Of a stretch of 64,000 bases of DNA, positions 888-64,000 are shown in pieces. The translations under genes and the position numbers were made by a program. The stretch covers positions 618,338 through 682,337 of the forward strand of contig CAWHWI010000003.1 in assembly GCA_963833025.1 (NCBI GenBank), given 5' to 3'. Position 1 is the first letter of the stretch, and every line of letters begins with the position of its first letter. Under the pieces are notes generated by a model. It was given only the letters and a program-made list of their open reading frames with translations. It had not been told where the DNA came from and did not search any database. The stretch is from an uncultured delta proteobacterium (lineage in GTDB: Bacteria > Desulfobacterota > Binatia > Binatales > Binataceae).

Positions 888-1033
888 CCTCTACTTCATT
901 GAACCGCACCCTCCACGCGACTGCAAGCACGCTCTTCGGACACTGTCCACCGGTCAGTAATCACTGGACTAATCAACGCGCGACTTGAGCGCATCCTGAT
1001 ACACTTCGCGACGCGTCGACCTTCCCCCAAGCT

Positions 1034-1160
1034 GTTCTAACAGGGACGAAGTCCCGCATCTTTATCTTAGTACTGGGTGCAGGGGTCACCCCTGCCCAAG
1101 GAGGTGTGGAACCCACGGTGGGTTCCACGTTTCAATTAAATGATTTACCCTTCCCCCTCC
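1034..1160 (+). repeat. multi-hairpin intergenic repeat element, copy 1 (modules B-C-D plus tail)
   Basis: Contains ctaacagggacgaagtcccgcatc, gcaggggtcacccctgc and gtggaacccacggtgggttccac followed by an attaaatgattt-cccttcc tail. Homologous to copies at 22803, 34116, 59631 and 60714. Confidence 0.85.
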
Positions 1161-14058: not shown

Positions 14059-14099
14059 CTAAGGAAACAATATCCTGCCCGCACAACGCCCGCAATTCA

Positions 14100-14510
14100 G
14101 GCAGAATCAAGCGCGGGGCTGCGCGCCCCGCACCCGCGGCAGGGGTGACCCCTGCACCCGGTACGGGGAGAAGAGGCGGCCTTCGCCCTATTCCTAACCT
14201 CTCCTTGTCCGAGGAGAGGTCGGCGCGAGCCGAAGGTGAGCGACGGGAGAGGTGCAACGCTGGCCGAACAGTTGCGCGTATTTGTGCTGCTGTCGGGCGG
14301 TGGAGTCAGTGTCTTTGCATTGCGGTTAAACGAGTCGGTCTGGTGGGCTGTCAGGCGTTGCACCTCACCCGGCGACACCGCTGCGCGGCTTACGCCGACC
14401 TCTCCTCGGACAAGGAGAGGTTAGGAACAGCGCGTCAGCCCGCATCTTTCTTCTTTCTTGAAACTGGGTGCAGGGGTCACCCCTGCCGAGGGTGCGGGGC
14501 GAGGAGCCCC
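14100..14510. repeat. composite foldback element with ~115-bp inverted-repeat arms, each containing an A-module and a C-like hairpin, around a ~170-bp centre
   Basis: Left arm 14100-14220 is the reverse complement of right arm 14394-14510. Both include cctaacctctcc..ggagagg and gcaggggt(c/g)acccctgc. The centre has a nested inverted repeat ggtgcaacgc / gcgttgcacc. Confidence 0.8.
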
Positions 14511-14514
14511 GCGT

Positions 14515-14748
14515 CTAATTCTTCCTCCAGCGCTCGCGGACGTCGAGCGCTGGCCCCGCCAGCGGGTTGCCGACCAGTAGCAGAAGTCCGACCGCGCCGA
14601 CCGCCAGCCCGCATCCAAGCCACCAGAGCGAGCGGTACTCGACGCCGAGTGCCAGCATCGCCAGCGCCCACAACGGAATGATTAGCGAGGCGACGAAGCG
14701 CATCAGCGCGCTAATCGCATGCTCGGCCTGTTCAGCGCGGTCATCCAT
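14515..14748 (-). CDS. small membrane protein (2 predicted TM helices), hypothetical
   Basis: 77-aa ORF with hydrophobic segments LIIPLWALAMLALGV and LAVGAVGLLLLV; stop abuts the foldback element. Confidence 0.4.
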   Translation of the reverse strand: MDDRAEQAEHAISALMRFVASLIIPLWALAMLALGVEYRSLWWLGCGLAVGAVGLLLLVGNPLAGPALDVRERWRKN

Positions 14749-22725: not shown

Positions 22726-22802
22726 TGCCGATCAAACGGCGCAGCCAGTGTTGCTTATAGTTCAACCCTCATTCGACTCACAACGACCTGACGTTTTCCC
22801 CC

Positions 22803-22912
22803 TCTAACTTTTAACAGGGACGAAGTCCCGCATCTTCTCTTAATACTGGGTGCAGGGGTCACCCCTGCCGAAGGAAGCGTGAAACCCACCGCGGGTTTCA
22901 CATCTAATTACG
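22803..22912 (+). repeat. multi-hairpin intergenic repeat element, copy 2 (B-C-D)
   Basis: ttttaacagggacgaagtcccgcatc...gcaggggtcacccctgccgaaggaagcgtgaaacccaccgcgggtttcac. Confidence 0.85.
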
Positions 22913-24449
22913 TGAACCGCCCACTCTTGACTGCGATTTCGCGCAGCTTCACGACGCGCGATTGTATCGCGCGGCTCCGGCGCATCCGCTCCAGCGTCAG
23001 CGGTATCCGATACGTCCAGTTCGAATCGCTGATCGTTCCCGGCCGATTGATTCGCGCACTCCATCCGAACAAATCCTGAATCGGAATGATCACCAGCTGC
23101 GACGGCGCCGCATACAGCATGGCCAGGATTGCATCGCGCGCCGATTCCTCGAGCATCCGGCGCGGATTCACTTTGCCCTCGAGCCCGAGCTCGCGCACGA
23201 ACTTCTCGCGCTCTGCGATAGGCTGCGAATGCCACCAAACGGTCAGAGGTTCAGTGTCATGCGTGCCGGTAGTCGCGAGCGAAAGTTCGGGATAGGTCGA
23301 CGGGCCGAGAAATGGTTCGTCGGCGTGGCCCCAGTCGCGCTCCCACTGCATCACCTTATATCCCGGCACGCCCAGCCGCGTGAGCGATTGGCGCACCCAC
23401 GGCGGCACGGTGCCGAGGTCTTCCGCGATCAGCTCGGTCGCCCCGACCTCCTGCTTGATAGTGCGAATCACTTCTTCGCCCTGGCGCAGTTGATCGACTT
23501 CGTCTATCGGCGTGAAAATTCCCGGCGCGTCCAGTTCGGAGCCGAAATTGAAAGTTCGATAAAGCCCAACGACGTGATCGATTCGAAGCAAATCGTAAAG
23601 CGCGCTGGCATGACGCGCACGCGCGCGCAGCACCTTGAATCCCTCCGCGCGCATCTGAGACCAGTTCGGCAGCGGCAGGCCCCATCGCTGTCCCTTGGGA
23701 TTGAAACCGTCGGGGGGAGCGCCCACGGTGCGCGACAAATCGAACTCGCCCTGGTTTGCCCACACCTCGGCGCTGTCGCTGCACGGCGAGAACGCGAGAT
23801 CTCCGCCGATAAACGCGCCGTGCGACGATGCGTACGCGCGCATCTCCGACCACTGCCGATGCGCGACGAACTGCCAGTGGCAGTACATCTCGATCGCGTC
23901 GGCCAGATCGCGGCGCGCGAGCGCGAGCGCGGCGGAATCGCGCTTCGCAATTTCAGCCGGCCACGTTTCCCAGCTGGTCCAGTTGAAGCGCTCCTTGAGC
24001 GCGCGAAACAGCGCATAGTCATGAAGCCAGTACGAGTTGGCCTCGATGAAGGCGTCGAGCTGCGCGCCGTCATCGCGTCCGCCGCGCGCGCGAGTCGCCC
24101 GGTACGCGCGCTCGAGCAACACAAACTTCTCCCGCCGTGTGATCGCGCGCGGCACAAAGCGCGCCTTCCCGACCGCCTGGCGTGCGCGCGCCTGCACGAC
24201 CCGCCCGACTCCCGGCAGCCCGCTTACCGATATGTACATCGGATCGATCGCCATCACGCTCATCGCGCTGTACGGGCTGAGATCGTCAGGCCCCGTCTCG
24301 TCCAACGGCAGCAGCTGAATCACGCGATGACCCATCGACAGCGCGAAGTCGATCATCGGCGCGAGACTGAGGATTTCGCCGCGTCCGAGATCGTCGCGCG
24401 TGCGAATCGAGAACAGTGGAATCAGGATTCCCGCGGACCGCGTCAGCAT
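22908..24449 (-). CDS. malQ: 4-alpha-glucanotransferase (amylomaltase, GH77)
   Basis: MLTRSAGILIPLFSIRTRDDLGRGEI...GDLAFSP...IIPIQDLFGW GH77 motifs. Confidence 0.9.
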   Translation of the reverse strand: MLTRSAGILIPLFSIRTRDDLGRGEILSLAPMIDFALSMGHRVIQLLPLDETGPDDLSPYSAMSVMAIDPMYISVSGLPGVGRVVQARARQAVGKARFVPRAITRREKFVLLERAYRATRARGGRDDGAQLDAFIEANSYWLHDYALFRALKERFNWTSWETWPAEIAKRDSAALALARRDLADAIEMYCHWQFVAHRQWSEMRAYASSHGAFIGGDLAFSPCSDSAEVWANQGEFDLSRTVGAPPDGFNPKGQRWGLPLPNWSQMRAEGFKVLRARARHASALYDLLRIDHVVGLYRTFNFGSELDAPGIFTPIDEVDQLRQGEEVIRTIKQEVGATELIAEDLGTVPPWVRQSLTRLGVPGYKVMQWERDWGHADEPFLGPSTYPELSLATTGTHDTEPLTVWWHSQPIAEREKFVRELGLEGKVNPRRMLEESARDAILAMLYAAPSQLVIIPIQDLFGWSARINRPGTISDSNWTYRIPLTLERMRRSRAIQSRVVKLREIAVKSGRFT

Positions 24450-29844: not shown

Positions 29845-29878
29845 GGCATCATCACCAACAGGCTGAAGGAGAGCAGCT

Positions 29879-30480: not shown

Positions 30481-30929
30481 CTTCAAACACCGAAGTTACA
30501 GTTGGCGATCGCGAGCTCACCATCACGCGCATCTTCGACGCGCCCCGCCCGCTGGTTTTCTTCGCGTGGTCAAGACCCAAACATCTGATGCGTTGGTTCG
30601 CGCCCAACAACTTCACCGTGTCGGAGTGCGAGATGGACTTCCGCGAGGGCGGAAAGTTCCGGCTGTGCATGCGCGGCTTCGGCAAGGACCATTGGATGAA
30701 CGGCGTCTTTCGCGAAATCGTCAAGCCGGAGCGAATCGTCTGGAGCAGCTTGTTGGATAACGACACCAACGAAGTGGTCACGACGGCGACGTTCACCGTT
30801 ATGGGCGGCGGCAAGACCATGCTCACAGTGCATCAGACCTACTCGATCGAAACTGATTCGACCCGCGGTGCACCACAGGGATGGTCCGAAACCCTCGATC
30901 ATCTCGCCGAATTACTGGCGGACGCCTGA
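30477..30929 (+). CDS. SRPBCC/AHSA1 domain protein, paralog 3
   Basis: RIFDAPRPLVFFAWSRPKHLMRWFAP; ATGA overlap with paralog 2. Confidence 0.8.
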   Translation: MTSNTEVTVGDRELTITRIFDAPRPLVFFAWSRPKHLMRWFAPNNFTVSECEMDFREGGKFRLCMRGFGKDHWMNGVFREIVKPERIVWSSLLDNDTNEVVTTATFTVMGGGKTMLTVHQTYSIETDSTRGAPQGWSETLDHLAELLADA

Positions 30930-30954
30930 CGGAATCGACTGAAGGAGAATTATT

Positions 30955-31425
30955 ATGGGAGCAGCAGTTAACCTGGTAAGCGAGCCTGCGGATCGCGTGC
31001 TTAAAATCGAGCGCGTCTTCGACGCGCCGCGCAGTCTCGTCTTCAAAGCCTGGACCGAGCCCGAGCACATCGCGAAATGGTGGGGTCCGCGCGGCTTCAC
31101 CAGCACCGTTCTCAAAAACGATCTGCGCCCGGGCGGCGCCTATCGAATCCACATGCGCGGACCCGACGGCGATCACTGGACGCAGGGCATCTATCGCGAA
31201 GTGGTCCCTCCCGAGCGGCTGGTCATGGTCGGGAGCTGGGCCGATGCGCAGGGCAATCCAACGCGCCCCGAAACGACGCTGACGCTGCTGTTCGAGGATC
31301 TCGGCGGCAAGACCAAGCTCACTCTGCACAACGCGGTCTTCGAATCGGTCACGGCGCGCGATTTGCACCAGGGCGGATGGACCAGCGCGCTCGATTGTCT
31401 CGCCGAATACCTGGCAACTGCCTGA
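30955..31425 (+). CDS. SRPBCC/AHSA1 domain protein, paralog 4
   Basis: RVFDAPRSLVFKAWTEPEHIAKWWGPRGF. Confidence 0.8.
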   Translation: MGAAVNLVSEPADRVLKIERVFDAPRSLVFKAWTEPEHIAKWWGPRGFTSTVLKNDLRPGGAYRIHMRGPDGDHWTQGIYREVVPPERLVMVGSWADAQGNPTRPETTLTLLFEDLGGKTKLTLHNAVFESVTARDLHQGGWTSALDCLAEYLATA

Positions 31426-33214: not shown

Positions 33215-34105
33215 ATGCAAAACCCGCAGGAATACTATAAGAGCGAAGGGCCAATGACAGCTCTGGGAGCGCACGCGGAAGAATTCCGCGCGATGCCCAC
33301 GGACCTCGCCTCGCTATGCGAGGTCGTACAGGGCTTGCTGATTCATCGCGATATTGCGCCATGGCTGTACGGCCTCACGCTGACCGAGGCGCAGCGCGAC
33401 GACGGCAACATCCGCCCGATCGCGAAAATGCTGACGCGCATTCACGAGCTCGATTCGCGCCCGATCACGAGCGCGCGCGACGTCGGCCACCGGCTCCCCA
33501 GCGTATGCCGTCATTTTTCGCTGATGCTCAGCGCCATACTCCGGTATCAGGGCATACCGGCGCGGCCGCGATGCGGCTTCGGCGCCTACTTCACGCCGGG
33601 CAAGTTCGAAGACCATTGGGTGTGCGAGTATTGGAACGCCGGCGAGAAGCGCTGGATATTGGTGGACGCGCAGCTCGACTCGATTCAGCGCAAAGCCTTG
33701 AACATCAATTTCAACCCGCTCGACGTGCCGCGCGACCGCTTCATAATCGCGGGCAACGCGTGGCAGATGTGCCGCACCGGCGCCGCCGATCCCGCCAACT
33801 TCGGGCTCACGCACGTCCACCTGCAGGGGATGTGGTTCATCGCCGGCAACGTGGTCCGCGATCTCGCGTCGCTCAACAAAATGGAACTGCTACCATGGGA
33901 CGTCTGGGGCTTGATGGATATGAACGACGCCGCACTGACCGACGAGAAAAAATCCCTACTCGATCGCGTCGCAACTCTAACCCTCGCGGGCGACAACGCG
34001 TTCCCCGAAGTCCGCGCAATCTACAACGACGATCGCCTCCGCGTCCCACCACTTGTCTTCAACGCACTGCGCAACGCCCCCGAACCAATCGCGAGCGAGA
34101 ACTAA
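33215..34105 (+). CDS. transglutaminase-like cysteine protease domain protein (start may be ATG 33254)
   Basis: CRHFSLMLSAILRYQGIPARPRCGF...HWVCEYW...WILVDAQ, consistent with the Cys-His-Asp transglutaminase core. Confidence 0.72.
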   Translation: MQNPQEYYKSEGPMTALGAHAEEFRAMPTDLASLCEVVQGLLIHRDIAPWLYGLTLTEAQRDDGNIRPIAKMLTRIHELDSRPITSARDVGHRLPSVCRHFSLMLSAILRYQGIPARPRCGFGAYFTPGKFEDHWVCEYWNAGEKRWILVDAQLDSIQRKALNINFNPLDVPRDRFIIAGNAWQMCRTGAADPANFGLTHVHLQGMWFIAGNVVRDLASLNKMELLPWDVWGLMDMNDAALTDEKKSLLDRVATLTLAGDNAFPEVRAIYNDDRLRVPPLVFNALRNAPEPIASEN

Positions 34106-34115
34106 CGCTTAACAA

Positions 34116-34230
34116 GTTCTAACAGGGACGAAGTCCCGCATCTTCTCTTGGTACTGCGTGCAGGGGTCACCCCTGCCGAAGGAAGCGTGAAACCCACCGC
34201 GGGTTTCACATTCAATTGAGTTCCTCCGCC
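34116..34230 (+). repeat. multi-hairpin intergenic repeat element, copy 3 (B-C-D)
   Basis: gttctaacagggacgaagtcccgcatc...gcaggggtcacccctgccgaaggaagcgtgaaacccaccgcgggtttcacattcaattga. Confidence 0.85.
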
Positions 34231-34240
34231 CTCTCCTGTC

Positions 34241-54085: not shown

Positions 54086-54138
54086 CTTTCACCCTTGCTT
54101 CGACTTAAGCCCACCCGTGAGCGCTCGCCGCGACCCGC

Positions 54139-55206
54139 TTACGGAATCACGGCGCATTTCAGAACTACTCCACGTTCGAGCATCTCAAACACTTCGGTCA
54201 GATCGTCAAGCCGCATTCGCGCGTTGACGATCGCGCCGGCATTCAGCGCACGCCCCGCCAGCAACTCGTAAGCGCGCCGCACGTCGCGCGGCCGAAAGTG
54301 AAACGGCGCCATCAACGTCAGATTGTCGTAATGCATCCGGCGTGTATCGACGCTGAGCGCAGTGCCTTCCGGACAGCCGCCGAAAAATACCACCCGCCCT
54401 CCGCGACGCACCCGCGCCAGCGCATCCTGCCATCCCTCGACTTGCCCCGTGCACTCGATCACCATGTCGGGGCCGAAGCCGCCGTTGAGCCGCGCGATTT
54501 CTGCGGCCGCATCGACGCTCCGCGCGTCGACGACGCGGTCCGCGCCCAAATCCTGCGCCCACTTCAGCCGCTCGGCGCCGCGCCCCACGACCGTCACCTC
54601 GCGCACGCCGGCCGCCTTCAGCACCAGCATGTGCAACAGGCCGAACGCGCCGCCGCCGATTATCGCCACCGTCTCGTGTTTGTCGGGACGTGCCATCTCC
54701 TGCGCGTACACCACGCACGAGAGCGGCTCGAGCAGCGCCGCTTCCTCGAACGGCAGATCCCCGGGTTTGATAAACGTGTTGCGCGCGACGACGTGCGCCG
54801 GCAACAGCAGCATGTCCGCGTACCCGCCATGCACCATTCGCCCGACCGCGTCGTCGCAAAGATTTTCCTGGCCATGCTGGCAGTAAAAACAGATTCCGCA
54901 CGGCGCAGTCGGCGCCGCCATGATTTCGTCGCCGGCCTTGAACGCCGTCACGCCCTCGCCCGCTTCGACCACGACGCCGGAAAACTCATGCCCGAATGGC
55001 ATCGGAAGTTTCCACATCGGATGTCCGCGCCGAAAGGTTTTCAGATCGGTGCCGCAACTCAATGTGCAGCGAATTTGAATCAGCAATTCGCCAGGCCCCG
55101 GATGCGGCGCGACGTAATCGCGCAACTCGAGGCGTCCCGGCTCGACCAGCACGGCCTGGCGCGAACGCGCGCCCGCTATTTCCGCCGCCGCTTCGAACGC
55201 GCTCAC
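54139..55206 (-). CDS. zinc-binding alcohol dehydrogenase (MDR family); GTG start overlapping ispA stop (GTGA)
   Basis: CGTDLKTFRRGHP...GHEFSGVVVEAGEGV zinc motif; GGGAFG Rossmann. Confidence 0.8.
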   Translation of the reverse strand: MSAFEAAAEIAGARSRQAVLVEPGRLELRDYVAPHPGPGELLIQIRCTLSCGTDLKTFRRGHPMWKLPMPFGHEFSGVVVEAGEGVTAFKAGDEIMAAPTAPCGICFYCQHGQENLCDDAVGRMVHGGYADMLLLPAHVVARNTFIKPGDLPFEEAALLEPLSCVVYAQEMARPDKHETVAIIGGGAFGLLHMLVLKAAGVREVTVVGRGAERLKWAQDLGADRVVDARSVDAAAEIARLNGGFGPDMVIECTGQVEGWQDALARVRRGGRVVFFGGCPEGTALSVDTRRMHYDNLTLMAPFHFRPRDVRRAYELLAGRALNAGAIVNARMRLDDLTEVFEMLERGVVLKCAVIP

Positions 55207-56180
55207 AGCTTGCGCTCCACGACGAACGTCGCGATATGCCGCAACGCGTCGGCGCGAGCGCCGAAGTCCGCAATCGCGCGATGAGCGCGGGTCTCGAGCT
55301 CGCGCGCCAGGTCCATCGAGCGCTCGATTCCCAGTATCGCCGGATACGTCGCCTTGCCGCGCTCGAAGTCCTTTTGCGTGCGCTTGCCCATCTGCTCGGG
55401 CGTGCCTTGAACGTCCAGCAAATCGTCGACGACCTGGAACGCCAACCCGAGCGCGCGCGCGTACGCGTCGAGCGACTCGATCTGCGATGTGGTCCCGCCG
55501 CCCAGGCGCGCACCGCCGCGCACCGACGCCAGGAACAGCGCCCCGGTCTTCTTGCCGTGCAGTTCTTCGAGCTCCTCGACCGTCTTCGACTTGCCCTCGC
55601 CGAGCAGATCGATCACCTGCCCCGCGACCATCCCGCTCGATCCCGCCGCCGTCGCGAGCTCCGCGACTGTCTCGAGCACCAGTGCCGGCGACGCGCTCCG
55701 GTCCGCCGACAGCGCCAGCACCTTGAATGCGTCCGTCAACAGCGCGTCGCCCGCGAGCGTCGCGATCGCTTCGCCGTAGACTTTGTGATTGGTCGGGCGT
55801 CCGCGCCGCATGTCGTCGTCGTCCATGCATGGCAGGTCGTCGTGGATCAGCGAGTAGGTGTGAATCATCTCGACTGCGCACGCGAGGCCCATCGCCGCTT
55901 CGATCTTGCCGCCGACCGCTTCGCACGCCGCAAGCACGAGCACCGGCCGCAGCCGCTTGCCGCCCGCCAGCAGCGAGTAGCGCATCGCTTCATGCAAGCG
56001 GGCCGCCGCGCCGGTAGGTTCCTCGACGCTATGTTTGAGCGCGAGCTCGATCGTGCGAGCGCGCTCCTTCAAATAGCTGTGCAAGTCGAACACGTTTCGT
56101 CTCTTATTGGATGCGGGCGACGCTTCTTTGATGCGGGATTTTTCCGCACGCGAACCTCCCCGCGCATCGCGAGCACTCAC
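55203..56180 (-). CDS. ispA: polyprenyl (farnesyl/geranylgeranyl) diphosphate synthase
   Basis: FARM LIHDDLPCMDDDDMRRG and SARM VVDDLLD. Confidence 0.87.
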   Translation of the reverse strand: MSARDARGGSRAEKSRIKEASPASNKRRNVFDLHSYLKERARTIELALKHSVEEPTGAAARLHEAMRYSLLAGGKRLRPVLVLAACEAVGGKIEAAMGLACAVEMIHTYSLIHDDLPCMDDDDMRRGRPTNHKVYGEAIATLAGDALLTDAFKVLALSADRSASPALVLETVAELATAAGSSGMVAGQVIDLLGEGKSKTVEELEELHGKKTGALFLASVRGGARLGGGTTSQIESLDAYARALGLAFQVVDDLLDVQGTPEQMGKRTQKDFERGKATYPAILGIERSMDLARELETRAHRAIADFGARADALRHIATFVVERKL

Positions 56181-56199
56181 GGGTTATCCGCTCGATTTC

Positions 56200-57204
56200 T
56201 CACGCCACGTAGTGCCGCACCATCCGCCACGAGTCCTTCAGATTCTTCCCGAACTCGAGCGCCACGGTGCCTTCGAATCCCGAATGCAGCTTGCAGTCGC
56301 GGCAGCGAAAATCCTGCTTGGTGCGATAGTACTCCCAATCCGTCGCCGCGTGCATCTCGTCGAGCGTCTTGTAGTGCCCGTTCGTGATCAGGTAGCAAGG
56401 CCCTTTCCATCCTTGCGGATTGCGCGTCACCGTCGTCCACGGACTGCACTGCATGTCGCGTTTGCCGACCAGGTAGTCCAGGTAAATCGGCGTGTTGATT
56501 ATCTTGTAGTCGTTCGCCATGTCGCGGACCTTGAAGAACTTCGCCGGCATCTCTTCCTTCTTCAGATACTCGTCGTCGTTCTGCAGCACCTGGTAGTGAT
56601 AGCCGGGACTGAGCAGCATCCCATCGACGCCCAGGCTGGTCAGGTACTTGACCATGTCCTCGAGCTCCTGGCCACTGGTCTCGCGGAACACGGTCGTGTT
56701 GGTCTGCACCCGGTAGCCCTTCTCCTTCAGCATCTTGATCATCTTCACGACGATGTCGAAATGCCCCTGCCTGTCGGTCACGCGATCGTTGGTCTCGCGC
56801 ATCCCGTCCAGATGCAGGTTGAAGCTGAGGTACGGACTGGGCGCCACCTGCTTGACGAATCGCTCGAGCAGAATCGCGTTCGTACAAATCATCACGTGAC
56901 GCTTCTGATCCTCGATCAGCCCTCGCGTCAGCGCCGCGATATGCTTGTACATCAGCGGCTCGCCGCCGCAGATCGACACGATCGGCGCGCCCGCCTCCTC
57001 CGCCGAATGCAGCGCCTCGTCGAGCGGCATCATGTCGCGGATCGTGTCCTTGTACTCGACGATTCGCCCGCATCCGATACATGCCAGGTTGCACGCATGC
57101 AGCGGTTCGAGCATCAGTACCAGTGGAAAATATTTTTCGCCCGCCCGCTTCTTCGCGCGGATGTAGCGGCCCAAGTCGATCATCTGTCTCAGCGGAATGC
57201 GCAT
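56200..57204 (-). CDS. hpnH: adenosyl-hopene transferase (hopanoid-associated radical SAM protein)
   Basis: CNLACIGC radical SAM motif in a ~334-aa HpnH-like protein; operon context. Confidence 0.85.
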   Translation of the reverse strand: MRIPLRQMIDLGRYIRAKKRAGEKYFPLVLMLEPLHACNLACIGCGRIVEYKDTIRDMMPLDEALHSAEEAGAPIVSICGGEPLMYKHIAALTRGLIEDQKRHVMICTNAILLERFVKQVAPSPYLSFNLHLDGMRETNDRVTDRQGHFDIVVKMIKMLKEKGYRVQTNTTVFRETSGQELEDMVKYLTSLGVDGMLLSPGYHYQVLQNDDEYLKKEEMPAKFFKVRDMANDYKIINTPIYLDYLVGKRDMQCSPWTTVTRNPQGWKGPCYLITNGHYKTLDEMHAATDWEYYRTKQDFRCRDCKLHSGFEGTVALEFGKNLKDSWRMVRHYVA

Positions 57205-58137: not shown

Positions 58138-59169
58138 TTATGGGAGATTTATCTCAACGCCGCAGCCAATAGATGACTTCCGCGCAGCGTCAATTAGCAC
58201 CAGTGCAACACGCGCCTCGGCTAGGTTACGCTTCGCGACAACGGAATTGGTTCCTTCGGTGACCGCTCGCTCGAACTCCTCTGCCACCCCGCCGAACCAC
58301 GCCGAATGGTACGAGTCGTCGGCCATGTCCGCCTCCGACAGGTCTTCGACCTTCCCGGACCGATCGGTAAGCGTCACCCGATCCCCCTCAATCTCGATAC
58401 ACGCGCGCTCTCCATAGATTAACGCCGAGGTCCTGCGCACCGGCGCGCGCCACGAAAGATGTGCCCGGGAGAACGATCCGTCTCCGAAACGGATTCGCAC
58501 GTCCGCAACATCATCGACGTCCACGCCCGCTGGCGATTCGAGCCGCGCCGAAACCGACACCGGTTTTTCGTAGCCTATAAGCCAATACATAAGGTAGAAG
58601 ACGTGCCATCCGTGATCGATCAGAATCCCGCCCCCCGACGCCGCCGACGCCCGCCACTTCCCGCCGCTGCCGCCAGCGCCGGCTGGCTCGGTCCTCAGTC
58701 GATCGATCGACACAAATCGAATCGCGCCCAGCATGCCGGTCTCGATCGCGCGCCGCGCAGCTGCGTACGATGGCGCGTACTTCCAATTGTGAACGCACAT
58801 CAGAATGCGCCCCTTCTCCGCCGCGAGCGCGGCAAGTTCATCGAACTCGCCAAGCGAAAGCGCAAGCGGCTTCTCGACCATCACATGCGCCCCCGCGCCC
58901 AATGCAGCGAGAGCAGCCTGATGATGCATCCCAGGCGGGCTCGCAACATCCACAAAATCAGGCGCCTCGCCGTCAAGCATCAGCTCGAGGTCGTCATACA
59001 CGCGAACACTCTTGATAAGCCGAATAGCCTCGTGCCGCCGCTCGGAAACAGGATCATGAACCGCGCAGATAGAAACATTCTCGCGCAAGCGCCACCCCGG
59101 CAGATGAGCCCGAGCAGCGACCTCGCCAAACCCGGAAAAAGCCCCCCGCAATTTTGATTCGATAGCCAC
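58138..59169 (-). CDS. Gfo/Idh/MocA family oxidoreductase
   Basis: N-terminal Rossmann fold and EKP motif (HVMVEKPLALS). Confidence 0.8.
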   Translation of the reverse strand: MAIESKLRGAFSGFGEVAARAHLPGWRLRENVSICAVHDPVSERRHEAIRLIKSVRVYDDLELMLDGEAPDFVDVASPPGMHHQAALAALGAGAHVMVEKPLALSLGEFDELAALAAEKGRILMCVHNWKYAPSYAAARRAIETGMLGAIRFVSIDRLRTEPAGAGGSGGKWRASAASGGGILIDHGWHVFYLMYWLIGYEKPVSVSARLESPAGVDVDDVADVRIRFGDGSFSRAHLSWRAPVRRTSALIYGERACIEIEGDRVTLTDRSGKVEDLSEADMADDSYHSAWFGGVAEEFERAVTEGTNSVVAKRNLAEARVALVLIDAARKSSIGCGVEINLP

Positions 59170-59363
59170 CGCGCCGCTAAGTGTCGACTAAAGCGATCGC
59201 CCGAGCAAGTTAGCCCGCAGCACGAACTCTGCACCGCAGCAGAAACACGGCATCTGCGCCGTCGCATTCGTCCCGATTCACCCAGCAATCGCTCACTCCC
59301 CTACAATGGCAGCGCTCTTGCTCTCTACCTCAACGAACGCGCAAGCGGGAGGACAAACGAATA

Positions 59364-59603
59364 ATGTTCGCATGGATTCTAATCGGACTAATCTCGGGAT
59401 GGCTGGCCGGCAAAATCCTCAACGGCAACGGCTACGGAATGATGTGCGACATCGGACTAGGCCTGCTCGGCGGAGTAGTCGGCGGAATGATATTTCAAGT
59501 GCTGGGCGTGCAAGCCCACAACTTCATAGGCGCCATCCTGATGTCCACGGCAGGCGCCACCGCACTGGTGGTAGCAACCAGGATACTACGCGACGAAATC
59601 TGA
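59364..59603 (+). CDS. GlsB/YeaQ/YmgE family small membrane protein
   Basis: MFAWILIGLISGWLAGKIL...GLLGGVVGGMIF; GGGAGGA SD. Confidence 0.82.
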   Translation: MFAWILIGLISGWLAGKILNGNGYGMMCDIGLGLLGGVVGGMIFQVLGVQAHNFIGAILMSTAGATALVVATRILRDEI

Positions 59604-59630
59604 AAAAGTCTTCTCGTATTTCTTGTCCTG

Positions 59631-59797
59631 ATCCTAAGCTCTCCTTGTCCGAGGAGAGGTTAGGATCTTCCCCTTTACAAACTTCTAACAGGGACGAAGT
59701 CCCGCATCTTTCTTAGCACTGGGTGCAGGGGTCACCCCTGCCGAAGGAAGTGTGAAACCCACCGCGGGTTTCACATTAAACAATTGATTTCCCCTTC
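59631..59797 (+). repeat. multi-hairpin intergenic repeat element, copy 4, full length (A-B-C-D-tail)
   Basis: tcctaagctctccttgtccgaggagaggttagga...ctaacagggacgaagtcccgcatc...gcaggggtcacccctgc...gtgaaacccaccgcgggtttcacattaaacaattgatttcccc. Confidence 0.88.
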
Positions 59798-60649
59798 CTA
59801 TACATACAACGACGCGATCTTCTTCAGCGTCCCCTCCGCACTCTCGAACGTGAGAGCTCCCAACCCCGCGACAAACCGCCCCGCGCCCGCCGCGGCAAAC
59901 TCCTTCAGCCCGTCCTGCACCTGCGCGCGATCGCCGCGGATTCCGCCCATGATCGTGATGTCCAACTCCGCGAAATTCCTGCCGGCCGCCGCGCACTCGC
60001 GCTTGAGTTCATCGACGCGCGTTTTCAATTGCGCCGCGTTCAACGCGATAGGGCACCATCCGTCCGCCCACTTCGCCACGCGCTTGAGCGCGTTCTTGTC
60101 CAGGCTGCCGATCAGCACGGGAGGCCCCGACTTCTGCGCCGGTTTCGGCAGCGACTTCACCGGCGGAAACTTGACGTACTTGCCGTCGCATGACGATTGA
60201 TCTTCGGTCCACAGCTTGCGCATCGCGGCGACAATCTCGGCGGTTTCGCTCCAGCGATGAGGGAAATCGACGCCGAACAAATCGCTCTCCTCGCGCAGCC
60301 ATCCCGCGCCGATCCCGAACAGCAAGCGGCCGCCCGAGTACGTGTCCAGAGTCGCGATCTGCTTGGCCAGCGCAAGCGGCTCATGCTCCGGGACGAGACA
60401 GATTCCGGTGGCAAGTTTCAGATTTTTGGTAACCGCAGCCGCCATGCTGAGCGCGATCATCTGATCGGCCATCGTGAAGTACTGCGGCGGAATCGGCCCT
60501 CCGGTAGGAAACTGCTGGACGGGATTAGCGGGCATCGCCGGATGCTCAGGCACCCAAATCGACTCGAACCCAAGCGATTCTGCGACTCGTGCAAATTCCG
60601 CAGGATGAGCATTCGTGCCGGTGAACGGCGTCAGCAATCCAATTTTCAT
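59798..60649 (-). CDS. LLM class (luciferase-like) F420-dependent oxidoreductase
   Basis: MKIGLLTPF...LPKPAQ.. LLM fold; AAGGAG SD before ATG 60649. Confidence 0.8.
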   Translation of the reverse strand: MKIGLLTPFTGTNAHPAEFARVAESLGFESIWVPEHPAMPANPVQQFPTGGPIPPQYFTMADQMIALSMAAAVTKNLKLATGICLVPEHEPLALAKQIATLDTYSGGRLLFGIGAGWLREESDLFGVDFPHRWSETAEIVAAMRKLWTEDQSSCDGKYVKFPPVKSLPKPAQKSGPPVLIGSLDKNALKRVAKWADGWCPIALNAAQLKTRVDELKRECAAAGRNFAELDITIMGGIRGDRAQVQDGLKEFAAAGAGRFVAGLGALTFESAEGTLKKIASLYV

Positions 60650-60713
60650 TTTTTCTCTCCTTGTCAGAGTCCCCAGTTCTAACAAATCCTCCCGTGAATA
60701 ACCTCACGCCCGG

Positions 60714-60882
60714 GTCCTAACCTTTCCTTGTCCGAGGAGAGGTTAGGATCTTCCCCTAACAAAGTTCTAACAGGGACGAAGTCCCGCATCTTTTCTTAGT
60801 ACTGGGTGCAGGGGTCACCCCTGCCCAAGGAAGCGTGAAACCCAGGAGGAGTTTCACATTAAATTAAGTGATTTCCCGTTCC
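60714..60882 (+). repeat. multi-hairpin intergenic repeat element, copy 5, full length (A-B-C-D-tail)
   Basis: gtcctaacctttccttgtccgaggagaggttagga...gttctaacagggacgaagtcccgcatc...gcaggggtcacccctgc...gtgaaacccaggaggagtttcacattaaattaagtgatttccc. Confidence 0.88.
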
Positions 60883-61359
60883 CTATTTCCACCCGAAGAA
60901 ATCCTTCGCAGTGACGAACTTCGCGACGCCGGCTGCTTCGCCCGCCAGCCGGTCGACTTCCTGATCGCCGACCATTGTCGACGACGCCAGATCGACGCCG
61001 TACAAATCCGCGAGCTCCGTGATCATGCCGCCCTTCGGCTTGCGACATTCGCAGTAGTCGTCGTCCGTATGCTGGCAGACTTGCCATCCGGTCAGGATAT
61101 CGCCGAGTTGGTTGTCGAGTTCCTCGAGCGCAGCCTCGACTTTCTCCGCCGTGAGACGGCCGCGCCGGATTCCGGCCTGGTTGGTCACGACGAACATCAG
61201 ACGGTTATGCAGTGGCCGGAGCTTCTCGGCCACGCCGGGCAGCAGTTCGACTACGATATTTCCGTCGGCGTCGAGCGGAATCTCGCGCGACTCGTTCAGC
61301 TTGACGAGCGTGCCGCCCAGATCGAAGAACAGCGCCGCGTTGCCATTCGGATTGGCCAT
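60883..61359 (-). CDS. HAD-IIIA family phosphatase (GmhB/histidinol-phosphatase-like)
   Basis: FFDLGGTLV motif I and VTNQAG motif II. Confidence 0.72.
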   Translation of the reverse strand: MANPNGNAALFFDLGGTLVKLNESREIPLDADGNIVVELLPGVAEKLRPLHNRLMFVVTNQAGIRRGRLTAEKVEAALEELDNQLGDILTGWQVCQHTDDDYCECRKPKGGMITELADLYGVDLASSTMVGDQEVDRLAGEAAGVAKFVTAKDFFGWK

Positions 61360-61374
61360 CGAAAAAGATTTCGC

Positions 61375-62751
61375 TTACGCGTGGCGCCAGTCAACGTGGT
61401 CGCGAACGTGCGCGAACACTTCGTCCATTATTTCGACGCCGGCTTCGGCCTGCGCCTCGGTAATCACCAGCGACGGGTTGATTCGAATCTTTGGAAAGTA
61501 ACCCATGATCACCAGCCCGCGCTTCAGGCATTCGGTGAAGATCAGCTCGGTGACTTTTTTGCTGAACAGTTCCCTGGTTTCGAGATCCCGCACCAGCTCG
61601 ACGCCTATCAGCAGCCCCTTGCCGCGGACGTCGCCGACAAATTCGTATTTTTCCTTGAGCTGCACCAGCCGCGACAGCATCATCGCGCCGACCTTGCGCG
61701 CGTTTTCCACCAGATGCTGCCGCTGAATTGCGCCGATCGTTTCCGACACCGCGACCGCCGCCAGCGGATTTCCGCCGTAGCTCGACGACGACGCGCTCGG
61801 CTTGCCGAACGGCTCCGCCTTGCCCAGCTCATCGCTAAGCAACACGCCCGAAACCGGGAATCCCGAGCCCATCCCCTTGCCGACGGTGACGATATCGGGA
61901 CGAGTGCCGCTGTGCTCGACGCCCCACCATTTTCCGGTCCGTCCGAAGCCGGTGATCATCTCGTCGGCAATCAACAGCGCGCCGAAATCCTTCGCCACCG
62001 ACTTGACCGCGGGCAGCCAGTCGTCGGGCGGAATCACGTTGCCGGCCGTGCCCTGCATCGGCTCGGCGACGATCGCGGCGAGCGCGCCGCTGGAACTCAT
62101 CTTGATCTGCTGACGCGCAAAATCGACGCAGTAAAGCCCGCAGTCTGGATACTTCAGCTTGAACGGGCATCGGTAGCAGTCCGCGTACGGAACCGTATAT
62201 TGCCCGCCCTGCAACGGCCCGTAGCCTTGCTTCGATTCGTCGCCGATAAGTCCCAAAACGCCGCCGGTCTTGCCATGGAACCCGCCCCAGAAACTCACCG
62301 CCTCATGCTTGCCGGTCGCGGAACGCGCCAGCCTGAGAGCGGCTTCGACCGCCTCGGCGCCGCCGCTATACAGATGTGCGCGAGTAAGTCCCGCGGGCGC
62401 GACTTCGGCCAGCGCCTTGAACGCGGCCGCGCGCTCTTTGGTCGCAAACGTGCCGACTATCAGCCGCGACGCCTGCTTGGACAGCGCCTGCGCGAGGCCA
62501 GGATGCGCATGACCCAGGCTCGCGACCGCAACTCCCGCGAAGAAATCGACGTAGGTGTTGCCGTCGGCGTCGGTGAGGGTTGCGCCCTCGCCATGATCGA
62601 ACGCGAGGCCGGCGAGCAGCGAGATTCGCTGGCGGCCCGGCGCGATATATTTTTGTTCGAGGTCGAAGATCTCCTTCGACTTGGGTCCCGGAACTGATGT
62701 CTTGATTGAAGGAAGCTTTCCGTTGGTGGTTGTCTTCAAGGTGGTTGTCAT
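61375..62751 (-). CDS. class III (PLP-dependent) aminotransferase; candidate hopanoid aminotransferase HpnO-like
   Basis: GGAEAVEAALRLAR, ADEMITGFGRTG and VTVGKGMGSG (PLP-binding Lys) signatures. Confidence 0.83.
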   Translation of the reverse strand: MTTTLKTTTNGKLPSIKTSVPGPKSKEIFDLEQKYIAPGRQRISLLAGLAFDHGEGATLTDADGNTYVDFFAGVAVASLGHAHPGLAQALSKQASRLIVGTFATKERAAAFKALAEVAPAGLTRAHLYSGGAEAVEAALRLARSATGKHEAVSFWGGFHGKTGGVLGLIGDESKQGYGPLQGGQYTVPYADCYRCPFKLKYPDCGLYCVDFARQQIKMSSSGALAAIVAEPMQGTAGNVIPPDDWLPAVKSVAKDFGALLIADEMITGFGRTGKWWGVEHSGTRPDIVTVGKGMGSGFPVSGVLLSDELGKAEPFGKPSASSSSYGGNPLAAVAVSETIGAIQRQHLVENARKVGAMMLSRLVQLKEKYEFVGDVRGKGLLIGVELVRDLETRELFSKKVTELIFTECLKRGLVIMGYFPKIRINPSLVITEAQAEAGVEIMDEVFAHVRDHVDWRHA

Positions 62752-62798
62752 TAAATGGTGTGCGATTCGATTCCTCGTTTTAATTACCGGCGCGATTT

Positions 62799-63620
62799 CT
62801 AGCGCGGGCGACCCAGCAGACTTATCGCACGGCGCGCAATCGCGCGAGCGGCCGGTCCGCGCACGCGACTGTAGCTGGGCCAGTCGTTAAAATCGATAAT
62901 CGCAAACCGATCGCCACTCAAGACCGCGTCTCCGCCCCACGCTTCGAGTCCGAGCGCGCCGGCGGCAGCCGAAGCCGCTTCCGACAGCGCGCGCACGGCG
63001 GCTTCGGCAACTTCCTCGCCGTCGGGATGCACGCTGAAATGCGCCCCGCCGCTGACGCCGTAGAATTTGACGACGCGGCCGAGCACTTCCTGCTGCACGT
63101 ATGCGAAGCGGATTCCGCGCCGCGCGAAGTTGGCCAAAATCGACTCGATCTCGGCGCGATCGGCCGCATGCTGCACGTCTTCGGGCGCCAGCGCATGCAA
63201 GTCGCCGCGCTTGACGAACACGCCCGCCGACAAATCAAGGCCGGCCAGTTTGCGCGCATCGAGTGGCTCGTCCGCCGCGATCAGCGCCCCCGGCGGAGTC
63301 GGCACGCCGGCGCGCTCGAGGCCGGGCGCGAGCAGGTCGCGGTAACAGTTGCGAATCGACAACGCGGAGTTGATCGCGACCGCGCCCGCCTGCTCGACTG
63401 CGGCCAGCCGCTTGAGCGCGCGCGGGCCCTGGCACATCGGCAGCACGAGATCCACGCGCGGCGCTGCGCCCGACGCGAAGCTCACCGCATCGACCGCATC
63501 GGTCTCGACCCCTTCGCGCTTCAGCTCCGCCAGGGTCGCGTCGAGAATCGCGGCGTCGGCCTCAACCTTGCCCGGTGAAAACTCGGGTTCCCGGTAAATT
63601 CCCAAAGCTCGATTGCTCAT
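62799..63620 (-). CDS. hypothetical protein, possibly ATP-grasp-like
   Basis: 273-aa ORF co-oriented and near-contiguous with neighbours; only weak ATP-grasp-like features. Confidence 0.35.
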   Translation of the reverse strand: MSNRALGIYREPEFSPGKVEADAAILDATLAELKREGVETDAVDAVSFASGAAPRVDLVLPMCQGPRALKRLAAVEQAGAVAINSALSIRNCYRDLLAPGLERAGVPTPPGALIAADEPLDARKLAGLDLSAGVFVKRGDLHALAPEDVQHAADRAEIESILANFARRGIRFAYVQQEVLGRVVKFYGVSGGAHFSVHPDGEEVAEAAVRALSEAASAAAGALGLEAWGGDAVLSGDRFAIIDFNDWPSYSRVRGPAARAIARRAISLLGRPR

Positions 63621-64000
63621 GGCATCTTCCGTATTGCGAGGCGCGCGGCGTCGAGGTCCGACGCTTCATCCACGTCGATCGATCCTTCGATCTCGATCGC
63701 ATCCAGCCGCATCCCGCGTTCGATGATCATCGCGAGGAAGCGGCGGAGTGCGTCGAGGCCCGTGCGGCGCGCATCGGCGGCGAAGTTGAAAATGCTGGTC
63801 GACAGGAAATACAGTCCCGCCGTCACCAAAGAAGTCTGACCGCTACCCAGCCGCTGGATCAAGCCGTTTTCTGTTACATCTGCGAAAAGCGGTTTGGCCT
63901 CACCACGCCATCGCGTGACGGCCAGCACGCCCACCAGACTTTTGTCGCCACACTCCTCGATTTTCCGCCGCGACTCATTAACAAAACGCGCCAATTCCGC
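63617..64000 (-). CDS. sugar-phosphate nucleotidyltransferase, 3' part only (gene continues past window end)
   Basis: C-terminal region GLYFLSTSIF...IEIEGSIDV resembles NDP-sugar pyrophosphorylases; N-terminus outside window. Confidence 0.45.
   Translation of the reverse strand, partial: AELARFVNESRRKIEECGDKSLVGVLAVTRWRGEAKPLFADVTENGLIQRLGSGQTSLVTAGLYFLSTSIFNFAADARRTGLDALRRFLAMIIERGMRLDAIEIEGSIDVDEASDLDAARLAIRKMP

What the first reader, a model, noticed from the sequence alone, without database searches (positions are those of the whole stretch)
59798..60685. F420-dependent LLM oxidoreductase gene bracketed by two full-length direct copies of the repeat
The only two full A-B-C-D copies in the window (59631-59797 and 60714-60882) directly flank a single gene in the same orientation. 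The element tails end exactly at the gene's stop codon on one side and at the neighbouring HAD gene's stop on the other. This element-gene-element arrangement resembles a composite cassette that could be excised or duplicated by recombination between the direct repeats.
Basis: partly seen in the sequence, partly recalled or inferred. Interest (0 to 1): 0.55.

Follow-up and report, generated by a model that had tools for sequence, protein, structure and literature searches.

The report
Dispersed hairpin repeats flanking an ordinary gene
The two repeats around the oxidoreductase gene are real, but they are two members of a common family of small hairpin-forming repeats that settle just after gene ends in Candidatus Binatus genomes, and the gene between them is an old resident of the locus rather than a mobile cassette.

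Summary
Two direct ~176-nt copies (59623-59798 and 60705-60882, about 90% identical) bracket a TIGR03619-type F420-dependent LLM gene (59798-60649, minus strand). Each copy ends at a stop codon.

The copies belong to a dispersed modular repeat made of four hairpins, A-B-C-D. It has 7 copies in this window and more than 130 in sampled Candidatus Binatus/Binataceae genomes.

- The hairpins covary.
- There are no terminal inverted repeats, target duplications, ORFs or Rfam matches.
- The D end tends to abut the stop codon of a converging gene.

Synteny argues against a cassette. Every LLM orthologue (79-96% aa) sits directly after the same HAD phosphatase gene, and many have no element, or only fragments, in either spacer. 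The nearest relative (L059, about 92% nt) shares the element-gene-element layout, and its LLM is under purifying selection (dN/dS 0.08).

The elements therefore colonised two adjacent spacers of a stable gene. Module content and subfamily differ even at orthologous sites, which points to turnover or ectopic conversion.

One metagenome contig (L148) has HAD, a single element and the downstream gene with no LLM. This is compatible with a repeat-mediated deletion but does not prove one.

Verdict: a new member of the REP/BIME-like kind, of modest interest.

The parts
59623..59798 (+). Repeat copy E1 (A 59630-59667, B 59691-59703, C 59725-59741, D 59752-59774, AT-rich tail 59775-59797). It lies between the converging stops of the 79-aa gene and LLM.
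   Evidence: nhmmer E=2.6e-54; sequence; independent hairpins in the fold, z=-3.7 and -4.7
60705..60882 (+). Repeat copy E2 (A 60713-60750, B 60773-60785, C 60808-60824, D 60835-60857, tail 60858-60882). It lies between the HAD stop and the LLM leader.
   Evidence: nhmmer E=7e-57; sequence; fold
59798..60649 (-). TIGR03619-family F420-dependent LLM-class oxidoreductase gene, 283 aa. It is the ancestral neighbour of the HAD gene.
   Evidence: Pfam PF00296; TIGR03619 at 242.8 bits against a cut-off of 166.9; orthologue synteny; dN/dS 0.076 against L059
60650..60704 (-). The LLM gene's own leader and RBS (…GGATTTGTTAGAACTGGGGACTCTGACAAGGAGAGAAAAAATG). It is not part of E2 and is shared with relatives that lack E2.
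   Evidence: Spacer comparison: L003, L154, L140 and L125 carry the same ATTTGTTAGAA…AGGAG leader
60883..61359 (-). HAD-IIIA phosphatase gene (histidinol-phosphatase/GmhB-like). Its stop abuts the tail of E2.
   Evidence: Pfam; NCBIfam TIGR01662 at 68.6 bits against 44.6
59364..59603 (+). 79-aa membrane protein gene (weak match to the Transglycosylase-associated family). It converges on LLM.
   Evidence: the ORF listing; Pfam PF04226 below cut-off; conserved in relatives
1017..1154 (+). B-C-D copy. Its tail supplies the last codons and the stop (TAA 1145-1147) of rsmI.
14093..14228 (-). Variant copy (A, C, alternative D), forming the left arm of a ~440-nt palindrome.
14384..14527 (+). Variant copy (A, C, alternative D), forming the right arm of the palindrome. 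Its tail overlaps the stop of a minus-strand gene at 14515.
22788..22923 (+). B-C-D copy. The stop (TAA 22908-22910) of the minus-strand gene lies inside the element tail.
34092..34233 (+). B-C-D copy between converging genes (stops at 34105 and 34241).

Best explanation
E1 and E2 are two members of a dispersed, non-coding, modular repeat family specific to Candidatus Binatus/Binataceae. A unit is a fixed series of short GC-rich hairpins followed by an AT-rich tail with stop codons in all three frames. The core is B-C-D. The A palindrome is a separable add-on that also occurs alone or as inverted doublets.

Copies accumulate in the short spacers just after genes. Most often the D end and tail lie against, or overlap, the stop codon of the gene that reads into it.

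Shown:
- The two spacers on either side of the LLM gene were colonised separately.
- The gene itself is an old, selected member of an aminotransferase-HAD-LLM block next to hopanoid genes.
- It is flanked by two copies because two neighbouring spacers happen to be occupied. This layout was already present in the common ancestor with the nearest sampled species.
- Copies turn over: modules are gained and lost, and orthologous sites hold different subfamilies.

Inferred:
- The family behaves like REP/BIME-type selfish DNA. It spreads or is homogenised through its DNA hairpins, by an unidentified trans-acting enzyme and/or ectopic gene conversion.
- It survives where it does least harm, at gene 3' ends.
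- Any effect on mRNA ends is secondary.
- Crossing-over between E1 and E2 would delete LLM. It is possible but rare or counter-selected.
For: Family and copy number:
- 7 copies in 64 kb.
- The 22-nt C hairpin is found in more than 117 stretches, almost all from Binatus/Binataceae MAGs.
- About 137-159 profile hits with variable module content.

Structure:
- Pairs are standard (Watson-Crick or G-T) in 91-99% of cells in register, against 18-70% when the partner is slid by 1-3 columns.
- Changes are mostly on both sides, for example D 134-150 AT 101 / GC 22 and D 132-152 TA 111 / CG 14.
- There is no strand bias in wobble pairs: 39 G-T against 45 A-C. This fits DNA-level palindromes.
- Folds show separate hairpins.

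No coding capacity, TIRs or TSDs and no Rfam family.

Position:
- The D end is within 80 nt of a converging stop in 66 of 107 copies.
- In tandem spacers the D:stop/AB:start arrangement occurs 16 times and the reverse 5 times.
- Only 2 copies lie between two gene starts.
- Stops lie inside the element in window copies 1017 and 22788 and in L127, L143, L134 and L148.

Gene stability:
- HAD-LLM adjacency holds in all orthologous loci.
- Element-free spacers occur in many of them.
- L059 shares both elements at 91-93% nt identity.
- LLM dN/dS is 0.076.

Chance: with 6 of 68 spacers occupied, P(some adjacent pair) = 0.38.

Turnover:
- L059's E1 lacks A and carries the GCGGAACCC/GGGTTCCGC D subfamily.
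- E1(window) against E2(L059) is 94.8%, against 84.3% for the orthologous pair.
Against: - No mobilising enzyme was found. The whole source genome could not be searched, and a motif scan of 1.43 Mb of sampled loci found no RAYT-like ORF (this is a weak test).
- Most window copies sit at orthologous sites in relatives at about 90% identity. Recent transposition is therefore not demonstrated, and selection for a host function could equally explain their persistence.
- The orientation bias relative to the upstream gene is what a functional 3'-UTR element would show.
- That the only two full A-B-C-D copies are neighbours has P of about 0.03 under random placement. This hints at local exchange rather than pure coincidence.
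- Gene calls for the context statistics are crude (GC3-filtered ORFs).
Confidence: 0.72

Rival explanations
1. One reading: element-LLM-element is a recombination cassette. Homologous recombination between the two direct repeats excises the gene, leaving one hybrid element, or amplifies it. The gene's presence or copy number would then vary between strains.
For: - The direct repeats are 1083 nt apart with exact blocks of 33, 29 and 25 nt.
- There is evidence that copies exchange sequence.
- Contig L148 has HAD, one element, then Tga-GFO without LLM.
- The HAD 3' end with its element is a synteny breakpoint in close relatives. groESL follows in at least 9 contigs.
Against: - LLM is fixed next to HAD in all orthologous loci, often without elements.
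- The double-flanked state has persisted in two species over dS = 0.24 with dN/dS 0.076.
- No amplification was seen.
- The exact-protein look-ups found only one other sample, with no HAD-Tga junction contig.
- L148 is a single short contig from another lineage. Its HAD-element junction is shared with L134, which has a different downstream sequence, and it holds an extra inverted partial copy.
Confidence: 0.15
2. The repeats are host-selected RNA elements of 3' untranslated regions. Transcribed with the upstream gene in the order D, C, B, A, their hairpins would protect the mRNA 3' end, or attenuate or terminate transcription. This would explain their fixed orientation against stop codons and their conservation. 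It does not exclude a selfish origin.
For: - The D end abuts a converging stop in 62% of copies, with a 16:5 orientation bias in tandem spacers.
- Hairpin stems are maintained by compensatory changes.
- Copies are retained at orthologous sites.
- Orthologous E2 copies differ by about 9% and E1 copies by about 16%, against a third-codon-position difference of 14% in LLM. This is at most a weak sign of constraint.
Against: - No hairpin is followed by a U-run in the sense of the upstream gene. The only terminator-like site (B plus TCTTTCTT) is on the opposite strand.
- Wobble pairs show no strand preference.
- Orthologous genes do well without the element.
- E2 sits inside what is a 24-35-nt, probably co-transcribed, HAD-LLM junction in relatives, yet LLM stays under selection.
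- Element presence and content vary widely between close relatives.
Confidence: 0.3
3. The repeats are attC-like recombination sites and the genes they follow are integron-type cassettes.
For: There is a superficial likeness: a structured repeat directly after the stop codon of a gene, in a fixed orientation, on both sides of a single gene.
Against: - Copies are scattered singly at 1.0, 14.1, 22.8, 34.1, 59.6 and 60.7 kb among housekeeping genes such as rsmI and hopanoid genes, not in an array.
- The element folds as separate hairpins, not as one long bulged hairpin pairing its two ends.
- The bracketed gene is syntenic across species.
Confidence: 0.02
4. The duplication is an assembly artefact, with a repeat collapsed or copied by the assembler.
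For: Short-read contigs from SRR28023468 break inside both repeats, so the short-read data alone cannot order the pieces.
Against: - The two copies differ at about 10% of positions and have different unique flanks.
- L001 reads from inside E1, through LLM, into E2 at 100% identity.
- An independent MAG of another species (L059) has the same layout.
Confidence: 0.02

Closest known systems
REP sequences, BIME mosaics, and REPIN/RAYT systems of Enterobacteria and Pseudomonas (definitions from PMC3337134; BIME from my own knowledge)
   Same: - Short GC-rich imperfect palindromes that are extragenic, occur in many copies and are specific to a clade.
- They are concentrated after gene ends and rare between diverging genes.
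- They are assembled into variable mosaics with other motifs.
- They have no target-site duplication, and their presence varies between close relatives.
- Inverted doublets exist for some modules (window 14085-14535).
   Different: - The unit here is a 120-176-nt ordered series of three or four different hairpins plus a tail, not a single 20-40-nt palindrome or an inverted doublet.
- No RAYT gene has been linked to it.
- No conserved GTAG-type 5' motif was seen across subfamilies.
Modular structured intergenic repeats such as pneumococcal BOX (boxA-boxB-boxC), enterobacterial ERIC and mycobacterial MIRU (from my own knowledge; not tested here)
   Same: - Repeats of 100-200 nt built from modules.
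- They are predicted to fold.
- They lie in transcribed spacers and sometimes overlap the stop codon of the upstream gene (as MIRU does).
- Module number varies between copies.
   Different: There is no sequence relationship, and the host phylum is different. Terminal inverted repeats (BOX, ERIC) are absent here, and there is no tandem unit variation of the MIRU type.
Composite transposons or gene cassettes bounded by direct repeats
   Same: One gene lies between two like-oriented copies of a repeat.
   Different: - The repeats are 176 nt without any ORF.
- The gene is ancestral at the locus and is never seen elsewhere.
- Relatives have the gene without the repeats.
Integron gene cassettes (ORF plus attC)
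   Same: A structured repeat starts at the stop codon of the gene it follows, in a fixed orientation.
   Different: There is no array and no sign of cassette shuffling. The element is a string of separate hairpins rather than one attC hairpin.

Membership tests
REP / REPIN-RAYT | Short imperfect palindromes, extragenic, many copies per genome | tested here: met
   7 copies in 64 kb; more than 117 stretches in Binatus/Binataceae MAGs; hairpins with 91-99% standard pairing and compensatory changes
REP / REPIN-RAYT | [quoted passage not shown] | tested here: not met
   E1 and E2 fold as four different hairpins in direct order. An inverted doublet exists only at 14085-14535 (ssDNA fold z=-16.5) and for module A in L140.
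REP / REPIN-RAYT | A cognate RAYT (HUH/Y1 transposase) gene flanked by the repeats | not testable with these tools
   The source genome is available only as this window and 8-kb pieces. A motif scan of 1.43 Mb found nothing, and ORFs between inverted C hairpins in L024 and L081 are unrelated. None of this is a valid genome-wide test.
REP / REPIN-RAYT | Insertion without target-site duplication | tested here: met
   The longest shared word between the left and right flanks of 117 copies has a mean of 6.4, against 6.2 for mismatched flank pairs. The one long duplication (window copy 1017) is a leftover of a different rsmI allele.
BIME-like mosaic | Palindromic units combined with other conserved motifs in arrangements that vary from locus to locus | tested here: met
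   Copies occur as C-D, B-C-D, A-B-C-D, solo A, C-B, and head-to-head pairs.
MITE | Terminal inverted repeats plus target-site duplication | tested here: not met
   Only intra-module palindromes were found; there is no pairing of the two element ends. No TSD was found.
Composite transposon or mobile cassette | Flanking repeats are insertion sequences or carry a recombinase, and the bracketed gene travels with them | tested here: not met
   There is no credible ORF in the 176-nt repeats. LLM orthologues always lie next to HAD, often without repeats.
Integron cassette (attC) | Cassette array next to intI/attI, with the attC folding as one bulged hairpin through paired end boxes | tested here: not met
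   Copies are dispersed singly and form separate hairpins. intI was not searched genome-wide.
Intrinsic terminator | GC-rich hairpin followed by a U-run in the sense of the upstream gene | tested here: not met
   Only the B hairpin on the + strand qualifies, which is antisense to LLM and HAD. The count is no higher than in shuffles (3 against 3.0).
Any Rfam family | Match at gathering score | tested here: not met
   There were 0 matches in the window. The best sub-threshold hit was 20.1 bits against 40, E=1.
TIGR03619 F420-dependent LLM oxidoreductase (the bracketed gene) | Score above the curated cut-off | tested here: met
   242.8 bits against 166.9; PF00296 at 174.6 bits

The most novel reading that the evidence does not exclude
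The family is an undescribed kind of 3'-end-seeking modular element.
- It inserts at or into the last codons of genes and brings its own stop codons.
- It is continually rewritten by ectopic conversion.
- It marks the points where gene order breaks in Binatia, for example HAD followed by LLM, by groESL or by Tga in lineages 93-96% identical upstream.
- Its core C hairpin is shared with an unrelated REP-like unit in Polymorphobacter (Alphaproteobacteria), which could point to a common hairpin-recognising enzyme acting across phyla.

Under this reading the LLM-less contig L148 would be a real product of recombination between flanking copies.
Probability: 0.15. Interest if true: 0.55.

Novelty: new member of a known kind. 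Interest (0 to 1): 0.27.

Why it matters
The specific claim, a gene cassette, carries little weight. The gene is an ordinary, vertically inherited oxidoreductase and the flanking repeats are bystanders.

The repeat family itself is a useful practical finding for an uncultured soil phylum:
- It explains why short-read assemblies of Binatus break at gene ends.
- It alters the C-termini and stop codons of real genes, which matters for annotation.
- It offers natural markers for strain typing.
- It may contribute to gene-order change.

If a cognate enzyme were found, it would extend REP-like systems to Binatota.

Tried and rejected
- **Target-site duplications.** A systematic flank comparison of 117 copies showed nothing above the control.
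- **The 39-nt imperfect duplication around window copy 1017.** It looked like a long TSD. Orthologues show that the downstream piece (…RREVYQDALKSRVD*) is the common ancestral rsmI end, while the in-use end (…QGAIKSSEEGEG*) is a different allele truncated by the element. I rejected it as a TSD.
- **RAYT search.** A motif search over 1.43 Mb gave no hits, and inspecting ORFs between inverted C hairpins found nothing relevant. This is inconclusive because whole genomes were not available.
- **Rfam.** Nothing was found at gathering or at permissive thresholds. No tRNA was found. A plasmid BLAST of the element gave no match.
- **Literature.** No paper links Binatus to such repeats. The search for REPs near termination codons returned nothing usable.
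- **Exact-protein look-ups** of the window's HAD, LLM and 79-aa proteins, to find strain variants. Only one other sample was found, and its contigs break in the repeats.
- **Local duplication of E1 from E2.** They are each other's best match (89.8%), but only marginally above copies in other genomes (88.6%).
- **Chimeric origin of L148.** Its protein identities to the window (AT 92%, GFO 81%) match the pattern seen for the single-genome locus L002 (AT 93%, GFO 82%), so this gives no evidence of a chimera. A misjoin through the repeat cannot be excluded.
- **First fold call.** It failed on a length limit.
Full report
**Observation.** Two like-oriented copies of a ~176-nt sequence lie at 59623-59798 (E1) and 60705-60882 (E2). 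The repeat finder gives three ungapped blocks at 89-93% identity with offsets of 1082-1084 nt. A profile built from the window copies scores them at E=2.6e-54 and 7e-57.

Each copy contains four separate palindromes plus an AT-rich tail:
- A: TCCTAACCTCTCC…GGAGAGGTTAGGA
- B: GGGAC-GAA-GTCCC
- C: GCAGGGG-TCA-CCCCTGC
- D: GTGAAACCC…GGGTTTCAC

The tail of E1 runs up to the TAG of the minus-strand LLM gene (59798-59800). The tail of E2 runs up to the TAG of the minus-strand HAD gene (60883-60885).

The window holds five further copies: 1017-1154, 14093-14228(-), 14384-14527, 22788-22923 and 34092-34233. None has the full A-B-C-D series.

The only correction concerns the gene. It almost certainly starts at ATG 60649 (283 aa, like every orthologue). 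The 55 nt between it and E2 are its own leader.

The gene is a TIGR03619-family F420-dependent LLM oxidoreductase: 242.8 bits against a cut-off of 166.9, and PF00296.

A short-read assembly of another run (SRR28023468) reproduces the gene and the adjoining repeat edges at 100% identity, and breaks inside both repeats.

**What the repeat is.** Source names on homologues place the window in Candidatus Binatus/Binataceae.

Nearly all were Binatus/Binataceae MAGs. Profile searches of those pieces gave about 137-159 copies of varying make-up: C-D only, B-C-D, A-B-C-D, and head-to-head pairs.

The stems are maintained:
- 91-99% of cells form standard (Watson-Crick or G-T) pairs in register, against 18-70% when the partner column is slid.
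- Substitutions are mainly two-sided. Examples are D 134-150 AT 101 / GC 22, D 132-152 TA 111 / CG 14, and B 72-78 AT 59 / GC 5 / CG 4.
- G-T and A-C mispairs are equally frequent (39 against 45). Neither strand is therefore favoured as an RNA, which fits palindromes acting at the DNA level or young copies.

The single-strand folds show separate hairpins rather than one long hairpin joining the ends.

The element has none of the following:
- a credible ORF;
- terminal inverted repeats;
- target-site duplications above the control;
- an Rfam match;
- a plasmid match.

The only terminator-like site is the B hairpin read on the + strand, which is antisense to LLM and HAD.

**Position rule.** I used crude GC3-filtered ORF calls on 107 copies that have a D end.
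- The D end lies within 80 nt of the stop codon of a gene reading into it in 66 copies.
- It lies next to a start codon in about 27 copies.
- In spacers between same-strand genes, the arrangement 'D at the upstream stop, A/B towards the downstream start' outnumbers the reverse 16 to 5.
- Only 2 copies lie between two starts.

An earlier count gave 41 of 109 D ends within 15 nt of a converging stop, against 1 for same-strand stops.

The element often supplies the stop itself. This is so for rsmI at 1145-1147 and the gene ending at 22908. In relatives, the HAD gene ends in TGA inside the loop of a C hairpin (L127, L143, L141) or in the tail (L134, L148).

Part of this adjacency is trivial, because empty spacers are only 20-50 nt long. 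The orientation bias is not trivial.

**Is the LLM gene a cassette?** No. I collected orthologous loci in three ways: through LLM homologues, through 80 metagenome loci found with the HAD protein, and from the genome scan (L059).

In every locus with an LLM orthologue (79-96% aa) the gene lies directly after the same aminotransferase-HAD pair. More distant relatives (60-67% aa) still have an LLM within 0.2-2 kb of HAD. The partner on the other side varies: the 79-aa gene on either strand, an MFS gene, or an SDR gene.

The HAD-LLM spacer:
- 24-35 nt and free of the element in L158, L163, L162 and L002.
- Only the 14-nt tail in L124.
- A solo A module in L003 and L154.
- C-B in L127.
- D-C in L128, L131, L133, L137 and L159.
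- D-C-B in L149.
- A near-full element in the window, L129 and L155.

The LLM to 79-aa-gene spacer:
- 18-50 nt and empty in L193, L131, L159, L137, L133, L154 and L002.
- An element in the opposite orientation, serving the other gene's stop, in L158.
- An unrelated palindromic repeat in L126, L135 and L128.
- D-C-B plus a different hairpin in L003.

The gene is therefore the constant and the repeats are the variable.

**Age and stability of the double-flanked state.** L059 comes from a MAG of another species. It is 91-93% identical over window 58264-64000 and has the same order, HAD-E2-LLM-E1-79aa.

LLM differs there by dS 0.24 with dN/dS 0.076. The gene has thus been kept under selection, with direct repeats on both sides, in both lineages.

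With 6 of 68 spacers occupied in the window, the chance that some two occupied spacers are adjacent is 0.38. The chance that the two full-length copies are the adjacent ones is 0.03.

That second figure, together with three further observations, suggests sequence exchange between copies (ectopic or local gene conversion, or re-insertion) rather than pure coincidence of form:
- The A modules of E1 and E2 in the window are nearly identical, whereas L059's E1 has no A.
- L059's E1 carries a different D subfamily, GCGGAACCC/GGGTTCCGC.
- The window's E1 is closer to L059's E2 (94.8%) than to its own orthologue (84.3%).

**The candidate scar.** One 3.4-kb metagenome contig, L148, reads aminotransferase, HAD, one D-C-B element, then the 79-aa gene, GFO and TetR. 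LLM is absent. This is what an E2 x E1 crossover would leave.

Four cautions apply:
- The contig belongs to a lineage about 85% identical to the window.
- Its HAD-element junction, which includes an altered HAD C-terminus (WAKGRT*), is shared with L134 and L136. L134 continues differently after the element.
- Next to the 79-aa gene it carries an additional, degenerate, inverted C-D fragment.
- Its upstream half is 93-96% identical to contigs in which HAD is followed by LLM (L127) or by groES-groEL (L143, L145, L132 and others; at least 9 contigs).

The HAD 3' end, with its repeat, is thus a general rearrangement point in this clade. The loss of LLM in L148 is one of several outcomes there.

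A misjoin through the repeat in a short-read assembly cannot be excluded. However, the divergence pattern of L148's genes does not suggest a chimera.

No deletion junction was found for the window's own species, because only one other sample carries it.

**Mechanism.**

Shown:
- The family is high-copy, modular and hairpin-constrained.
- It lacks coding capacity, TIRs and TSDs.
- It is concentrated at gene 3' ends in a preferred orientation.
- It is variable between close relatives.
- It is subject to subfamily switching at orthologous sites.

Inferred:
- The family works like REP/BIME-type selfish DNA.
- Its DNA hairpins are the features that are recognised or exchanged.
- It persists at gene ends because insertions there are tolerated.
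- Effects on mRNA 3' ends are possible and not excluded.
- The E1/E2 pair around LLM has no cassette function.
- Crossing-over between E1 and E2 is physically possible, since the exact blocks are at most 33 nt. It would remove a selected gene.

**Comparison with known systems.** The closest kind is the REP/BIME/REPIN world (definitions in PMC3337134).

Features shared with REP/BIME:
- extragenic GC-rich palindromes;
- high copy number;
- mosaic arrangement;
- no TSD;
- avoidance of divergent promoters.

Features not met or not testable:
- The unit is not an inverted doublet, except at 14085-14535.
- No RAYT could be sought genome-wide.

The element is not a MITE, a composite transposon, an integron cassette, an intrinsic terminator or an Rfam family (see the membership table). 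I file it as a new member of a known kind.

**Verdict.** The cassette interpretation is largely not supported, with a residual, unproven possibility of repeat-mediated loss. Interest is modest.

Noticed in passing
window 14085-14535: A ~440-nt near-perfect palindrome built from two inverted variant copies (C, an alternative D hairpin, and A) around a central spacer. The ssDNA fold is -176.5 kcal/mol against -95.4 ± 4.9 for shuffles (z = -16.5). In the orthologous site of L040 (about 90% identity) the outer C/D arms are conserved, but the ~250-nt centre is replaced by B-type hairpins.
   Followed up: partly
window 985-1014 and 1161-1200 (flanking copy 1017-1154): The 3' end of rsmI is present twice.
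- The in-use end (…RREVYQGAIKSSEEGEG*) takes its last codons and stop from the element tail.
- A leftover (…RREVYQDALKSRVD*) on the far side of the element matches the C-terminus common in other Binatus (…DALKSRDDDSSDD).
This looks like an imprecise allele replacement at the element, not a target duplication.
   Followed up: partly
L127:3405-3430, L143:4465-4490, L141:2290-2310, L134:4470-4490, L148:1215-1240: In several relatives the HAD gene's last codons and stop codon are supplied by the repeat. TGA lies in the loop of the C hairpin (FFGWQG*, FFGQG*), or the C-terminus is extended to WAKERT*/WAKGRT* and ends in the element tail.
   Followed up: partly
L143, L145, L132, L141-L144, L150, L151, L174 (downstream of HAD): In lineages 93-96% identical to L148 and L127 across the aminotransferase-HAD genes, HAD is followed by repeat fragments and then groES-groEL (with a CIRCE-like inverted repeat) instead of LLM. 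Gene order therefore breaks exactly at the HAD 3' end.
   Followed up: partly
L126, L135, L128, L129, L155, L149, L141 (spacers around LLM and HAD): A second, unrelated palindromic repeat family (…TTTGTGTCATTCTGAGCGAAGCGAAGAATCCCGGATC… with its inverted partner) occupies the same spacers in other relatives. L059 holds yet another nested palindrome of ~215 nt in the HAD-LLM spacer.
   Followed up: no
L010, L035, L060, L070, L074, L079 (Polymorphobacter, Alphaproteobacteria): The identical 22-nt C hairpin (GGGTGCAGGGGTCACCCCTGCC) recurs in Polymorphobacter genomes inside a different conserved unit (AAACAAYC-hairpin-CGCCGGAGGC), without the B or D modules. It may reflect convergence or a shared hairpin-recognising factor.
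   Followed up: partly
L124:1568-1601: In the closest metagenome HAD orthologue (94% aa), the HAD-LLM spacer holds only the first 14 nt of the element tail (GGAAGGGGAAATCA), joined directly to the LLM ribosome-binding site. It may be a deletion footprint of the element.
   Followed up: no
window 52127-57204 and 61375-63620: The LLM gene sits in a hopanoid-related neighbourhood: squalene-hopene cyclase (709 bits), an FPP/GGPP synthase, and HpnH adenosyl-hopene transferase (380 bits). A TetR regulator and a GFO/IDH/MocA oxidoreductase lie on one side, and a class-III aminotransferase and a HAD-IIIA phosphatase on the other.
   Followed up: partly
window 59743-59751, 60826-60834; copies: The linker between the C and D hairpins reads AAGGAAG or AAGGAGG on the element strand. 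On the strand of the upstream gene it therefore reads CTTCCTT or CCTCCTT, which resembles the anti-Shine-Dalgarno end of 16S rRNA. In the gene-sense fold it pairs with the tail that follows the stop codon.
   Followed up: no
window 20550-21365: Seven to eight repeats with a 123/126-nt period (…TCGGTGAACCACAGGTTGCCGTCG…) lie inside coding sequence. They probably encode a repeated protein domain.
   Followed up: no
window 29320-31425: Four tandem paralogous genes of about 150-170 aa share 63-126-nt blocks at 64-86% identity.
   Followed up: no
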